The notes under the pieces are model-generated. The model ran no database searches. It worked only from the letters and a program-made list of their open reading frames with translations, and was not told the DNA's origin. The translations under genes were made by a program, and so were the position numbers. This document shows, piece after piece, positions 7,681 through 44,833 of a stretch of DNA of 64,000 nt (position 1 is its first letter; every line of letters starts with the position of its first letter). The stretch is from the NCBI GenBank assembly GCA_964016885.1, contig CAXHJY010001554.1, positions 1 to 64,000 of the forward strand. The letters are read 5' to 3'. Source of the stretch: Eledone cirrhosa (Eukaryota).

Positions 7681-7751
7681 TGTTTTATCTGATGAAAACA
7701 CAAATATTATTGTTTGATGATGTTTGTTTTTGAAATGCGCATAATAAAATA
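7681..7751 (+). ncRNA. Type-I hammerhead ribozyme (A' module)
   Basis: TGTTTTAT-CTGATGA-36-nt stem II-GAAA-TGCGCA (palindrome)-TA-ATAAAATA; stem I and stem II pair by eye. Confidence 0.8.
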
Positions 7752-8016
7752 TATTGAACTCCTTTAACCATCTTTTGATCTTATATTATGCATACTCCAG
7801 TCCCACAAACTGTAGAGTGCTTCTTATCCGATATCTGCATTGCTTTATTGTACTACAATAAAACTCACCTCCTATATATAAATATATATATATATATATA
7901 TATATATAAATATATATATATATATATATATATATAAATATATATATATATATAAATATATATATATATAAATACAATATTAAATAAATGGAAAACTATA
8001 TTTATAAAACCATATT

Positions 8017-8082
8017 TATTTCATTATATATATTTCGGGGATATCATATTAACAATATGCTATGCCTTCATCAGACAAAATA
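8017..8082 (-). ncRNA. Hammerhead ribozyme, family B
   Basis: Reverse complement reads TATTTTGT-CTGATGA-stem II-GAAA-TATATA-TA-ATGAAATA. Confidence 0.72.
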
Positions 8083-9539
8083 CAATATAAACAGTTTTAT
8101 AGATAAATAGATTCGACATACCGTAATAACACCGACTTCATTTGAAGAGGTTTACGCTGGCAGTGAAAAAATGTTATACAGAGGGAAAGAAAGAGAGAAA
8201 AAAGAAAGAAAGACAAAACGAAGAAAAGGAAGAAAAAGAAGAAAAAGAAAAAGAAGAAATGGATGGAACAAAATAGAGAGATGGAAAGATAGATAAAGCG
8301 AAGAACTTCATGTAAAGAAACAGAAAGAGACATATATATATATATAGAGAGAGAGGAAATAGAGATAGATACATATATATATATAGAAAATTAGGTAGTG
8401 GGAGGTCATTTTGAGTAAATGTATCAATGATACATTTATTTATTTATTTATTTATTTAGCTCAGGTATTAATGTAAGGGAGATATATAGAGAGAAAAAAT
8501 ATAGAGAGAGGAAAAAATAGCGAGAGAAAAAAATTTAAAAATAGCCAGACATATTCGAGGCGCAAAAACCCTATGTTTTAATGTATTAGTATTTATAAAA
8601 CTTACACTATATTGTAAATATCAGTATTCCTGAATGAGACAAGTATCCATAATGTGTGAAAATTAATTATCTTATGTTTAGTTTTAAAAAATTCATATGT
8701 TTATGTGACAGCTACAAACATCCATGCGAATCCAACTGATTCACTCTGCAAACTCTATGTTCACGGAAAACATTCTCAATGTGGTATAAAAATTTGAGCG
8801 TATTATTATTCCTGTCATTACTCTACAAGATTATCTATCAAGCAGAAATAGAGAGCAGATTTCAATATACTAATAAAAATATATATTATAAACAAAACTA
8901 AAAATAAAAAGATAACAATAATAATAATAAGTAAAATTATAGAATAGAAAACTAAAAAAATATTACGAAAGAATATTACATAATAAAAATATTACATATT
9001 AAAAATACTACGTATTAAAAAATATTACGTATTAAAAATTTACATATTAAAGATATTAAAAATAAAATAAAAAATAAAAAATATTATAGAATACTACAAT
9101 AATAAAAAAATAAAAATAAAAATAAAAATAAAAATAAAAATAAAAATAAAAATAAAAATAAATAAAAATAAAAATAAACCACAAAGAACAACTCTTCAAA
9201 GTTAATTGACAATATATTGCCAAGTTCATTACAAGACAAAGCCAAAACTTATCTATCAAATCACATCTAGCAAAGATCATTTTCAAAAAGATTATGATGT
9301 CCAATTAGGTCTACATAATGTTCTTATATTTAATATAGAAGTTTATCTAGTGTAAGGTTAATTCAAAAAATTTTGGAGCATCAGCGTTTAGGGTAGCTTA
9401 ATTTTCCATGAGGAATGTTTAGATAAAAATAAAATAAAAATAAACAATAAAAAAAGAGTAAAAAGAGGGAATCAAAGATTTAGGCATCAAAAAATTTATC
9501 GGCTAGTTTCCCATATAAATATAAATCAAACTAAATATA

Positions 9540-9861
9540 CTACATTTTAAATTTAAATTTATATTTAAACGTTGAGTTTAATCTATGTTTGCAACAACTG
9601 AATAAATTTGTCCGTAGCTTAAGGGAATTTTTAGATTTTAGTATAAAGAATATCTCCTCTGCGCAGAGGTCACATGTCTCAGAGGATGAATTAAAAGGAA
9701 TCCCTCTTGAGACTATATTCCAAGCCGTCGAATATCTAACGTTATCTAGCTTAAGTTGCCAGAGTACGCCTGATAGTGCCGTTGAAGATTTTTTACTTGG
9801 ATCTGTGAAAGAATTCTTGTGGTTATTATAGCGAAGTTTAAATTCCGTCGATGTGGAACCG
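9540..9861 (-). pseudogene. PLE family B GIY-YIG C-terminal fragment
   Basis: Minus translation GSTSTEFKLRYNNHKNSF...LSGVLWQLK...CDLCAEE...SCCKH. Confidence 0.85.
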
Positions 9862-10091
9862 TCGGTTCCACATCGACGGAATTTTGTCTCTATTTTGTTC
9901 CATGCATTTCTTCTTTTTCTTTTTCTTCGTTTTCTGTCTTTCTTTCCTTTTTTCTCCCTTTTTCTCTCTTTCTCTCTCTCTCTTTCTTTCTCTTTGTGTA
10001 CAATTTTATCACTACCAAATCAACCTTCTCAAACGCAAGTAGATGTTACGGTATGTCGAAATCTATTTATCTATAAAAACTGTTTATATTG

Positions 10092-10157
10092 TATTTTGTC
10101 TGAGGAAGGCATAGCATATTGTTAATATGATATCCCTGAAATATATATAATGAAATA
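10092..10157 (+). ncRNA. Hammerhead ribozyme, family B (CUGAGGA variant)
   Basis: TATTTTGT-CTGAGGA-...-GAAA-TATATA-TA-ATGAAATA. Confidence 0.7.
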
Positions 10158-10673
10158 AATATGGTTTTATAAATATAGTTTCCATTTATTTAATATTGTA
10201 TTTATATATATATATATTTATATATATATATTTATATATATATATATATATTTATATTTATATATATATAAATATATATATAAATATATATATATAAATA
10301 TATATATATAAATATATATATATAAAATATATATATATAAATATATATAAATATATATATAAATATATATATATAAATATATATATATAAATATATATAT
10401 AAATATAAATATATATATATATAAATATAATATAATATATATATATAAATATAAATATATATATATATAAATATATGTAGATAAATCTACCAAGAGTTTA
10501 CGGTAGTGTCCAATCCGTATGAAGAACTCAATGTATTCCGGATATCATGGAAAGAAGAGATGTAATGAAAAATCACTTTCGGTGAAAGATAAACGGTATA
10601 CAGAGTCAAGATAAAATATTAAACAAATAATGAATAAAACAATGAAACAGTTCCTTATATTAAACAAAAAAAG

Positions 10674-10827
10674 TTCATTATTTAACGATCGTTTCTAGGA
10701 TATATATGTGTTAGAATTGGCATGCATATTCAACAGATCTATATACAAAATTATACAAAATTATACAAACTATCAAGATTAAATATACATACCAAACACA
10801 CATATACGCCGTCTTCAGAATAATGAA
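10674..10827 (-). ncRNA. Hammerhead ribozyme, family A, giant stem II
   Basis: Reverse complement of the fold at 19908-20062. Confidence 0.75.
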
Positions 10828-42983: not shown

Positions 42984-43078
42984 GACATATTACAATCGTT
43001 TCTCTGGCGACCAGCTCGAGGCACGATCGATGCGATGATCGAACCTGACTCTGAAATCGCAAGGTCCTCAGATACGTC
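42984..43078 (-). ncRNA. Hammerhead ribozyme, family F
   Basis: Reverse complement reads GACGTAT-CTGAGGA-62 nt-GAAA-CGATTG-TA-ATATGTC. Confidence 0.78.
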
Positions 43079-43444
43079 TCGATTCTTTAACATCGAATTC
43101 CTTCGTTTGTTGATTTAGATTCTGTTGTTGTCATTCCATGAGTGGTCAAGAATTGTACACGACATCGGTATTTCAAGCCACTCATGGTTGCCCACTGTTT
43201 GGTTCTTCTCGTTCTCCACCTGTCAGTTAAAATATCTTCATGTATCCGAATTACTACTGTGGTGGGAAAGGGGCTGTGATCTTGAACGGCTGGCATCACT
43301 TCGACGTGTTCAATGACCCAAGGCGCCCTATTCCACAGCGGTCAGGTATACACCCGCAATTATGCTGTATGCGGCAGTCATTGTAAATAATGTTTGGCGG
43401 GAATTCCTTTAAAAAACAAATCATAGGAATATTTAGCATAACAT

Positions 43445-43654
43445 TTGGAACTGGATACAGGCCTACACCGACCATATCACAAGCCCAACGAGAACCTGCA
43501 GTATGTTAACAGGCACTCAAACCACTCCAAGTCGCTTATTGATGCTATAGTGAAGGGGGTATCCATCCGAGTATCCACACTCTCCGCCAACATTGATGTG
43601 TTCAATCAGCACGCCGACTACTACAATGAGGCACTGGGCAGGGCCGGTACATAG
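43445..43654 (+). pseudogene. PLE RT thumb fragment
   Basis: LDTGLHRPYHKPNENLQYVNRHSNH...YYNEALGRAG aligns with the family A and B RT. Confidence 0.85.
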
Positions 43655-44260
43655 AGGCCATAGTGTACACCCCGGATAAAGGCAGGCCGCAGAGTGATGA
43701 ACACAAACACCTAGACACCGCTAGTAATAACTTAGGTGTTTGCTTATGGGTAGGTTGTCTGCCTAACAGTATAGATAGGAGTATTAAACTTGACAGTGAT
43801 GGCAGCACAGTGCATAGACAGTCGAGGGAGCTTGGGAACCCTAGGGACCACAACACATGGACTGAACAGTAGTAACACCTCGGACGAGGGCGGGTTAACC
43901 ATAGATAGTGAAGTAGATAACACAGCTCGGAGCTCTATGGTTAAAGGACAATAATTGCGGGTGTATACCTGACCGCTGTAGACTAAGGTCCCTGGGGGCA
44001 ATGAAGACGTCGAAGTGATGCCAGCCGTTCAAGATCACAGCCCCTCTCCCACCACAGTAGAAATTCTGATATATGGAGAAATTCTGATTGACAGGTGGAG
44101 AATGAGAGGAAGCAAGAAGTGGGCAACCATGAGTGGCTAGAAATACCGGTGACGTGTACAATTCTTGACCACTCATGGAATGACAACAACAGGATCTAAA
44201 TCAACAAACGAAGGAATTCGATGTTAAAAGACAATAGGAAAATCTGCTTCGTAGAATCGA

Positions 44261-44355
44261 GACGTTTCTGAGGACCGCGCGATTTCAGAGTCAGGTTCGA
44301 TCATCAAATCCATCGTGCCACGAGCTGGTCACCCGAGAAACGATTGTAATATGTC
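44261..44355 (+). ncRNA. Hammerhead ribozyme, family F, 62-nt stem II
   Basis: GACGTTT-CTGAGGA(44268)-...-GAAA(44337)-CGATTG-TA-ATATGTC. Confidence 0.75.
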
Positions 44356-44564
44356 CAATAAATTGCATTCGTCGCAACACTGATTCTCTTTTTTTCTGTG
44401 ATATCATACTCTGTTCTACGAGAGCATCGAGTGCTCATACGGTCTACCGCATACGGGCGCTTTAAGCATCCAACACCAATTATATATATATATATATATA
44501 TATATATATATATATATATATATATATATGAGTAAGTATGTTTTGAAACAGTGAGCAGGTTTGA

Positions 44565-44698
44565 AATTAGAAAATTGAATAGCTTTCACCCTATTTTTGA
44601 CTAAAGAAATTTTAGTCTGATAATGGGGTTTAAACCCCATTATCAGACTAAAATTTCTTTAGTCAAAAATACGGTGAAAGCTATTCTATTTTCTAATT
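44565..44698. repeat. 134-bp near-perfect spacerless palindrome
   Basis: Centred on GGGGTTT|AAACCCC at 44631/44632. Confidence 0.95.
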
Positions 44699-44706
44699 AT
44701 TGGGCA

Positions 44707-44833
44707 CCCACTGAAGAATTCTAAGAGCCCACTTGAATATGTATCTGTTGATCTTATACAAGCTCCTACATAAATTGATATAATTTCACCCAAATTGTAG
44801 GAATCTTATAATGAAACGAGACGTCCGTCTGGG
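44707..44833 (+). ncRNA. Candidate hammerhead (family G) with 95-nt stem II
   Basis: CTGAAGA(44711)-ATTCTAAGA...TCTTATAAT-GAAA(44813)-CG aga CG-TC; stem I is weak (CCCA/TGGG, offset). Confidence 0.45.

What the first reader, a model, noticed from the sequence alone, without database searches (positions are those of the whole stretch)
7681..44833. A set of family-specific atypical hammerheads in one PLE nest
Seen: up to eight distinct HHR folds, each tied to a different pLTR. Stem II inserts are 13 (E), 14 (C), 20 (D), 31 (B), 36 (A'), 62 (F), 95 (G, tentative) and 116 nt (A). Stem III is either palindromic or near-palindromic (TGCGCA, TATATA, CGATCG, CGATTG, CGGCTG) or a real hairpin (C, E, G). 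Inference: stem II has expanded repeatedly in this lineage, and different palindromes could restrict dimeric cleavage to same-family partners.
Basis: partly seen in the sequence, partly recalled or inferred. Interest (0 to 1): 0.75.

Follow-up and report, generated by a model that had tools for sequence, protein, structure and literature searches.

The report
Long-armed hammerheads of Hydra-clade Penelope elements
The ends of several jumping genes in this animal DNA carry a known type of predicted self-cutting RNA whose second arm is up to about four times longer than in their relatives; the long arms likely mark one related group, and the palindromes are unlikely to be a family-recognition code.

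Summary
All eight stem II lengths and all listed stem III sequences are in the window. A strict descriptor finds 13 sites against 0.01 expected. A', A, B, F and probably G and D are type I hammerheads at the 3' ends of Hydra-clade Penelope-like elements. E has a damaged core. C (Neptune-type element) fails as drawn.

Long stem II is a real local trait: 29-116 nt here against 10-25 nt in 33 distinct hammerheads of relatives. It travels with a pyrimidine mismatch at pair 4 (6 of 7 long families, 0 of 33 relatives) and a changed tail hairpin. The A, B and F RTs form one clade. One origin followed by length turnover fits at least as well as repeated expansion.

The palindrome code is not supported. 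A:F and B:I stem IIIs cross-pair, relatives share palindromes across families, and stem I also blocks most cross-pairs. Cleavage was not tested. The scan had noted long stems, the mismatch and the failed code on other DNA of this genome. New variant of a known kind.

The parts
7681..7751 (+). Hammerhead A': stem II 36 nt, stem III TGCGCA, predicted cut after 7743
   Evidence: stem II z -3.0
7794..7818 (+). A' tail hairpin, ACTC...GAGT type
5165..5300 (-). Partial hammerhead A (3' half); left arm of the block whose right arm ends in A'
5303..5578 (+). Hydra-clade endonuclease end, 98% identical to that of element A, followed by a 3' UTR that ends in A'
8017..8082 (-). Hammerhead B1: 31 nt, TATATA
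9540..9900 (-). Hydra-clade endonuclease end of family B
10092..10157 (+). Hammerhead B2 (diverged flank)
10674..10828 (-). Hammerhead A1: 116 nt, CGATCG, one base missing in stem I
10526..10606 (-). A tail hairpin, ACTC...GAGT type, enlarged to 81 nt
14290..16141 (-). Hydra-clade RT and endonuclease of family A (5'-truncated, frameshifted)
19908..20062 (+). Hammerhead A2: 116 nt rod-like stem II, 10-bp stem I
   Evidence: z -6.35 for the whole motif
23410..23475 (-). Hammerhead B3
23732..25330 (+). Hydra-clade RT and endonuclease of family B (5'-truncated, frameshifted)
26778..26843 (+). Hammerhead B4, long tail with ACTC...GAGT hairpin at 26893-26912
27560..27676 (-). Hammerhead H (not in the finding): 88 nt, CACGTG, GUC site
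   Evidence: stem II z -5.1
29918..29964 (-). Hammerhead D: U3-A8 core (TTGAAAA), 20 nt, CGGCTG; stem I broken in this copy
30009..30101 (+). Partial D arm with intact stem I strand and GCTC...GAGC tail hairpin
32754..32804 (-). Motif E1: CAGAAGA core, 13 nt, hairpin stem III; damaged
32932..33200 (+). Hydra-clade endonuclease end of family E
34129..34179 (+). Motif E2: same core, lacks U16.1
34421..34562 (-). Hammerhead A3: diverged subfamily, 105 nt
35411..39097 (+). Neptune-type PLE ORF in pieces (DKG, YLDD, Cys linker, GIY-YIG)
   Evidence: Neptune versus Nematis not tested
40623..40690 (+). Motif C in the Neptune-type pLTR (TTGACAA, 14 nt, GAAA); hammerhead fold not supported; further copies at 35375 (+) and 35260 (-)
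41009..41072 (-). Hammerhead B5 (29 nt)
42233..42298 (+). Hammerhead B6
42795..42873 (+). Hammerhead I (not in the finding): 46 nt, TATGTA, AUC site
42984..43078 (-). Hammerhead F1: 62 nt, CGATTG
43445..43648 (+). Hydra-clade RT fragment between the two F arms (link to F by position only)
44261..44355 (+). Hammerhead F2, long tail with ACTC...GAGT hairpin at 44408-44432
44707..44833 (+). Probable hammerhead G: 95 nt branched stem II, 4-bp stem I; tail hairpin at 44928-44956

Best explanation
Type I hammerhead motifs sit at the 3' ends of Hydra-clade Penelope-like retrotransposon remnants piled up in (TA)n DNA, and the long-stem forms (A', A, B, F, I, probably G and H) are likely one derived subgroup whose stem II tip is free to grow and turn over while the core and the base of the stem are kept. 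Shown: the motifs, their lengths, the ORFs next to A, A', B, E and F, the pair-4 pyrimidine mismatch, the tail hairpin, and the RT clade. Inferred: the RNA folds with stem II as a long rod or branched arm and cleaves after NUH, slowly or only with help. Reverse transcription likely starts downstream of the cut site, near the tail hairpin, so every copy that has both hammerhead and tail would come from an uncut or re-joined RNA, which would favour a slow 3' ribozyme. The palindromic stem III likely allows a double-hammerhead between two copies of the same end. Same-family preference would follow passively from stems I and III both being exchanged, not from a selected code.
For: 13 sites against 0.01 expected. 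Stem II folds as an arm closing on the core, with z -7.2 (A2), -4.9 (A3), -5.1 (H), -3.0 (A') and -2.3 (F1), and better on the ribozyme strand than on its complement for these five. Among A copies, substitutions at 7 distinct paired positions keep pairing. Basal pair 2 of A reads G-U, A-U or G-C in different copies. Pair 3 of F is U-A in F1 and G-C in F2. Reads restore stem I of F2 (44266: 39876 of 40034 depth) and basal pair 3 of I (42852: 38194 of 38441). Read depth over F and I is about 100 times that of the adjacent sequence in two raw-read runs. Homologues carry RWK, DKT and CxCx5C, the Hydra-clade marks. RTs of A, B, F and an Octopus protein group at 100/100 against 58 other rows. Pair-4 Y.Y in 6 of 7 long families and 0 of 33 relatives. 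Tail hairpin GCTC...GAGC in 27 of 37 relatives (0 of 37 upstream), and in short-stem D and E, but ACTC...GAGT in A', A, B, F and G. Short arms end 6-9 nt before that hairpin in 5 of 5 families. In a Poseidon element, uncut RNA is the main substrate and the ribozyme needs the protein (PMC11167929 passages).
Against: No cleavage or RNA data. Stem II of B, F2, I and G does not fold much better than shuffles (z -1.2 to +0.8; G -1.7). Whole-motif folds of 9 of 10 motifs tried have z above -2. The cleavage-competent monomer fold lies 1.1-8.2 kcal/mol above the MFE. Almost all pair-keeping changes in A are one-sided G-U swaps, and 5 cells were scored broken. The window RTs sit on long branches and the F fragment fills only 27% of columns, so the clade may be partly an artefact. 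The endonuclease tree could not place short-stem E outside the group. H lacks the pair-4 mismatch. A published Octopus Hydra element has an ordinary 23-nt stem II. G, H, I and D have no ORF beside them.
Confidence: 0.72

Rival explanations
1. The palindromes are a selected family code that restricts dimeric cleavage to same-family partners.
For: In 19 of 21 cross-family pairs among 7 families the in-register stem III duplex is weaker than both homodimers. All 21 full double-hammerhead heterodimers are disfavoured. Seven families here carry seven different hexamers.
Against: A:F stem III (-7.9) is stronger than F:F (-5.8), and B:I (-3.2) equals B:B and beats I:I (-2.2). Stem I cross-pairs are also poor except for A' with B, so exclusion does not need the palindrome in most pairs. 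One stem III (CTCAGAG) occurs in 7 of 33 distinct relatives, and one is shared by 5 of 14 Hydra magnipapillata families. Tandem partners lie in cis (PMC6765202, PMC6466107 passages). A and A' ends with incompatible palindromes close one insertion block behind the same endonuclease.
Confidence: 0.1
2. The long stem II is a functional domain that gates cleavage, for example a binding site for the element's protein or a double-stranded substrate for RNA editing.
For: The basal geometry is fixed across unrelated sequences. Pairing is kept in A and F. A Poseidon ribozyme cleaves only with its protein. Six of the 7 pair-keeping positions in A change an A-U, G-U or C-G pair at a G-U.
Against: Distal length and sequence are not conserved between families (29-116 nt). 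A copies differ by a 9-10 nt tandem unit at the tip. The tail hairpin of A is enlarged too (81 nt), and the 3' UTRs are long (about 1.5 kb in B, 3.5 kb in A), which points to general expansion in this lineage.
Confidence: 0.15
3. Stem II was enlarged independently several times, with the pair-4 mismatch arising by convergence.
For: Distal stems are not alignable between families. H has no mismatch. The RT links are available for only A, B and F.
Against: Three unlinked characters (long stem, pair-4 mismatch, ACTC...GAGT hairpin) co-occur in 5 families and are absent together in D and E. A, B and F RTs form one clade.
Confidence: 0.2
4. The motifs are chance matches in AT-rich repeat DNA.
For: Loose descriptors with variant cores return many junk hits and 0.72 expected sites per window. 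This remains possible for C and, less so, for G.
Against: 13 against 0.01 or 0.08 expected; position at element ends; compensatory changes.
Confidence: 0.02

Closest known systems
Hammerheads of Hydra-clade Penelope-like elements (Craig et al. 2021, PMC8557442; section 11, passages, Files S1 and S2, hits in S4 and S7 read)
   Same: Type I motif near the 3' end, (TA)n targets, near-palindromic stem III that varies among families of one species, frequent non-pair at the base of stem II. D and E match this type in length (20, 13 nt).
   Different: Published inserts are 12-26 nt (26 rows); here 29-116 nt. No pair-4 pyrimidine mismatch was seen in that table by eye. Published stem III segments are mostly 7-8 nt; here 6 nt. 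The longest insert in that file is about 54 nt, in a spike-moss PLE-X element flagged as deviating.
[quoted passage not shown]
   Same: Several sequence families per genome, palindromic stem III, proposed dimeric action, U3-A8 core variant, larger than usual helix II, low activity in vitro.
   Different: Helix II of 7-8 bp at most in the text; inserts up to about 23 nt in the 56-row alignment (by eye); their descriptor limited the size.
Dimer-cleaving PLE hammerheads (Lunse, Weinberg and Breaker, RNA Biol 14:1499)
   Same: Short stem III, dimeric cleavage, PLE association (from the title in reference lists and the review PMC6765202).
   Different: The paper was not held, so its stem II range and any heterodimer test were not seen.
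Poseidon PAc hammerhead (Frangieh et al. 2024, PMC11167929; passages read)
   Same: Ribozyme upstream of two reverse-transcription start sites that bound a tail; arms here end at two sites in the same way.
   Different: Different clade. Protein dependence is shown there and untested here.
Animal non-LTR retrozymes (PMC7229834 passages; bioRxiv 10.64898/2026.07.22.740005 parts 1-2 of 5)
   Same: Type I hammerheads with a 2-bp stem III and tetraloop; a PLE origin is proposed. H, I, G and D could be such non-autonomous ends.
   Different: No tandem arrays of these motifs in this window.

Membership tests
Type I hammerhead ribozyme | CUGANGA ... GAAA ... UH core in that order | tested here: met
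   A', A, B, F, G, H and I canonical; D has the U3-A8 variant
Type I hammerhead ribozyme | Core intact in motif E | tested here: not met
   U4 is A in 2 of 2 copies; E2 also lacks U16.1
Type I hammerhead ribozyme | Stems I, II and III can close the core | tested here: met
   A', A, B, F, H and I pass the strict descriptor, G the generic one; constrained folds
Type I hammerhead ribozyme | Three stems in motif C | tested here: not met
   With a hairpin stem III stem I fails; a minimal reading needs G.G in stem III; passes no descriptor
Type I hammerhead ribozyme | Covariation in stems | tested here: inconclusive
   One double change in F, a G-C/G-U/A-U series and one-sided changes in A; few copies
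Type I hammerhead ribozyme | Site-specific self-cleavage | not testable with these tools
   No assay; no RNA run was available to lay
Type I hammerhead ribozyme | Stem I-stem II tertiary contact | not tested
   No model built
Hydra clade of PLEs | C-terminal endonuclease with CxCx5C linker and no CCHH | tested here: met
   CNCRDRSKC in B and CNCRNKANC in A; endonuclease ends of A, B and E; definition
Hydra clade of PLEs | RWK and DKT motifs at the N-terminus | tested here: inconclusive
   Window copies are 5'-truncated; the motifs are present in the homologues P0001, P0003 and P0005
Hydra clade of PLEs | Insertion in (TA)n, inverted 5'-truncated copy, optional tail | tested here: met
Hydra clade of PLEs | ORF link for D, G, H and I | tested here: inconclusive
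   No ORF in their islands; D and G carry the tail hairpin; H and I end before its expected place
Obligate dimeric PLE hammerheads | Palindromic stem III/loop 3 | tested here: met
Obligate dimeric PLE hammerheads | Inactive as monomer, active as dimer | not testable with these tools
   A 2-bp stem III with a tetraloop gave some monomer cleavage in axolotl and is called similar to the invertebrate form
Non-circularly permuted (SGC) hammerheads | Block order S-G-C | tested here: not met
   All accepted motifs are C-G-S. For C no CUGANGA follows the GAAA block (by eye; definition)

The most novel reading that the evidence does not exclude
An octopus-type subclade of Penelope-like elements has evolved a gated hammerhead: a fixed mismatch at the base of a very long stem II keeps the 3' ribozyme off until the element's protein, a partner RNA or RNA editing acts on the arm, so that the RNA keeps its reverse-transcription start hairpin until it has been copied.
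Probability: 0.15. Interest if true: 0.72.

Novelty: new variant of a known kind. Interest (0 to 1): 0.42.

Why it matters
Hammerheads in PLE ends and their palindromic stem III are published, so the basic finding is ordinary. The long stem II is not in the tables I could read, and size-limited descriptors would miss it, so hammerhead counts in such genomes are likely too low. The window gives a natural series (13 to 116 nt) within related elements. That makes two open questions directly testable: what the PLE hammerhead does, and whether it acts as monomer, dimer or protein-assisted ribozyme. If the arm gates cleavage, it would be a natural regulated hammerhead.

Tried and rejected
No whole genome was held, so the genome-wide descriptor search was not done. 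No RNA holder was listed among sequencing runs. Read-based support for G is missing. Rfam showed no hammerhead in the 150 of 174 rows listed for the window or in two sub-regions; this says nothing on novelty, because 8 relatives with ordinary hammerheads also gave 0 hits at gathering score. Viral contigs held no relative. Pfam matched only the GIY-YIG domain of the Neptune-type ORF, 1 of 8 proteins. The endonuclease tree (95 columns) was too weak to place E. L010's 135-nt hit was dropped before the count because its stem III is disrupted and the match ran on to a later GAAA. 38 of 80 loci gave no accepted hammerhead; many end too soon. Of the 14 longer ones inspected, several have short-stem motifs that missed a filter, and none showed a long-stem motif by eye. 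My first tail search used only ACTC...GAGT and found 6 of 36 relatives; the relatives' form is GCTC...GAGC. A U3-A8 hit at 13660/16964 was rejected as likely chance (0.72 expected). A degenerate A-like repeat near 34785 does not align as a hammerhead. Literature searches for octopus plus hammerhead plus Penelope, long or extended stem II and heterodimers found no report of such long stems or of cross-family assays; the library lacks most subscription papers, including Lunse et al. The bioRxiv preprint's supplements were not opened and may bear on hammerhead sizes.
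Full report
Setting. The window is AT-rich animal DNA dominated by (TA)n and (CA)n runs. No whole genome was held. The only named species-level hits for the RT are an Octopus sinensis protein (49% over 42% of the query) and a coral protein; I call the host octopus-type on that basis and from earlier scan notes. Unique islands between the microsatellites are remnants of Penelope-like elements, many as a direct arm plus an inverted arm.

The observation. All eight stem II lengths and the five listed hexamers are present. A generic stem III descriptor finds 13 sites in seven families, adding G, against 0.08. 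The strict descriptor was tuned after seeing the motifs, and copies are not independent, but six families against 0.01 is far beyond chance. A1 is missed because one base of stem I is deleted. D has a U3-A8 core, a variant already in print and present in relative L027; its complete copy has a broken stem I while the partial opposite arm pairs. E has U4 changed to A in both copies, and each has one more lesion. C, in the pLTR of a Neptune-type element, does not close as drawn: with a hairpin stem III the first pair of stem I fails, and the predicted fold is a different 9-bp helix.

Which elements. The ORFs next to A, A', B, E and F are of the Hydra clade. A and B show the CxCx5C linker and a C-terminal endonuclease without CCHH, their homologues carry RWK and DKT, and these are the published marks. 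F's link to its RT fragment is by position only. D, G, H and I have no ORF in their islands. A and A' follow the same endonuclease end (98% over 234-244 nt). Their 3' UTRs stay alike for about 1 kb and then diverge; the distal A' UTR has no good match in the A, B, E or H regions. In that block the left arm is an A end and the right arm an A' end. So hammerhead type and protein family are not one to one.

Is stem II really long and paired? Stem II folds as an arm closing on the core with z of -7.2 (A2), -4.9 (A3), -5.1 (H), -3.0 (A') and -2.3 (F1), and better on the ribozyme strand than on the complement for those five. B, F2, I and G are weak (z -1.7 to +0.8). The whole A2 motif has z -6.35; nine other whole motifs have z above -2. 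Among A copies, changes at 7 distinct paired positions keep pairing, nearly all one-sided G-U swaps, and 5 cells scored broken, one of them from a register shift at the base. In the symmetric register the second basal pair of A is G-U, A-U or G-C in different copies, and the third pair of F is U-A or G-C. Four runs laid on 42420-44460 show that most other copies restore stem I of F2 and basal pair 3 of I. Depth over the F and I ends is about a hundred times that of the adjacent sequence in the two raw-read runs. These are reduced-representation libraries and the tool warns that depth is no copy number, so this only fits high abundance.

Comparison with relatives. Of 80 metagenome loci with a related RT, 42 gave an accepted hammerhead downstream, 33 distinct. 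Inserts are 10-25 nt, median 18, although the descriptor allowed 200. The published Hydra table gives 12-26 nt in 26 rows, with 23 nt for an Octopus element, and about 54 nt for one spike-moss element (counted by hand). The 56-row metazoan alignment stays near 23 nt or below (by eye). The long forms here share more than length. Pair 4 of stem II is a pyrimidine mismatch in A', A, B, F, G and I (6 of 7; H has G-U) and in 0 of 33 relatives. A hairpin about 50 nt after the cut site reads GCTC...GAGC in 27 of 37 relatives (0 of 37 upstream) and in short-stem D and E, but ACTC...GAGT in A', A, B, F and G; 4 of 37 relatives also hold that second pattern. These two features also make G a probable member. 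The RTs of A, B and F group with the Octopus protein at 100/100 against 58 other rows, on long branches. The endonuclease tree could not place E. One origin of a long-stem type followed by turnover of the tip fits at least as well as repeated expansion. The same family also has an enlarged tail hairpin (A, 81 nt), and the 3' UTRs are long, so expansion is not confined to stem II.

The palindrome code. In a double hammerhead both stem III and stem I are exchanged between the two units (this follows from the geometry; merging of the stems III is described). Computed in register, stem III separates 19 of 21 family pairs, but A:F (-7.9 kcal/mol) beats F:F (-5.8), and B:I (-3.2) equals B:B and beats I:I (-2.2). 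Stem I cross-pairs are poor except for A' with B. All 21 full heterodimers are disfavoured. Same-family preference is therefore expected, but as a by-product of divergence in two stems. Relatives share stem III across families (7 of 33 have CTCAGAG), as do 5 of 14 published families of one species. A 2-bp stem III with a tetraloop, which is what these hexamers give as monomers, is described as similar to the invertebrate form; it gave 22% monomer cleavage in axolotl, and most invertebrate retrozyme hammerheads cleave efficiently. Dimer dependence itself is thus open.

How it likely works. In 6 of 8 two-armed blocks one arm ends shortly after the cut site and the other carries a longer tail. 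The short ends fall 6-9 nt before the tail hairpin in A, B, D, E and F (positions; boundaries at TA runs are fuzzy). The exceptions are B1/B2 (both short) and the A/A' block (both long). In a Poseidon element two reverse-transcription starts bound the tail, uncut RNA is the main substrate, and the ribozyme cleaves only with the protein. By analogy (inference), copying starts downstream of the hammerhead, so copies with both parts come from uncut or re-joined RNA, and a slow or assisted ribozyme is favoured at the 3' end. Cleavage in an upstream tandem copy could still free the element's RNA. The long arm is most simply a tolerated appendage on a conserved base (0.72 for the whole account); a gating role is possible (0.15).

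Novelty. Hammerheads in pLTRs, several families per genome, palindromic stem III and dimeric action are published. Stem II of 62-116 nt with a fixed basal mismatch was not found in the papers and tables read or in searches; Lunse et al. was not available. The scan had already noted long stems, the C-C mismatch, the tail hairpin and the failure of the palindrome code on other pieces of this genome. I had recorded the mismatch before seeing that note. The hairpin lead and the idea of a brake came from those notes; I tested the hairpin here. Verdict: real, a new variant of a known kind, interest 0.42.

Noticed in passing
window:4975-7875: One insertion block has an A-type end on its left arm and an A-type endonuclease and UTR ending in the unrelated A' hammerhead on its right arm; both arms carry long tails. 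It suggests two RNAs used in one event, a template switch, or later recombination.
   Followed up: partly
window:7975-10200: Arms B1 and B2 of one block differ by about 15% just upstream of the hammerhead, both have short tails, and the junction near 9850 is a short fold-back; other B arm pairs are 99% or more identical.
   Followed up: partly
window:19925-20040 versus 34442-34546 and 5199-5300: The young A copies have G opposite U at several stem II positions where other copies have A (7 G-U pairs in A2, 2 in A3). This fits A-to-I editing copied into DNA, or plain tolerance of G-U; direction was not established.
   Followed up: partly
window:40595-40660: In the Neptune-type pLTR a 9-bp helix encloses an AC-rich stretch and motif C; it recalls the AC-rich stem loop where a Poseidon RT starts.
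   Followed up: no
window:23652-23821, 41562-41743, 44565-44698, 47533-47812: Long near-perfect fold-back palindromes, three of them at the junctions of two-armed PLE insertions.
   Followed up: no
window:49030-55720: Tandem satellite of roughly 24-28 nt units.
   Followed up: no
window:56070-63400: Long array of a roughly 18-nt unit that gives spurious 'QVNYIT' reading frames.
   Followed up: no
window:42420-42695: Very high-depth short repeat, SINE-like, just upstream of hammerhead I.
   Followed up: no
window:9540-8080 and 14290-10830 (minus strand): 3' UTRs of families B and A are about 1.5 and 3.5 kb and hold microsatellites, while relatives have the hammerhead 280-690 nt after the RT-EN match.
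   Followed up: partly
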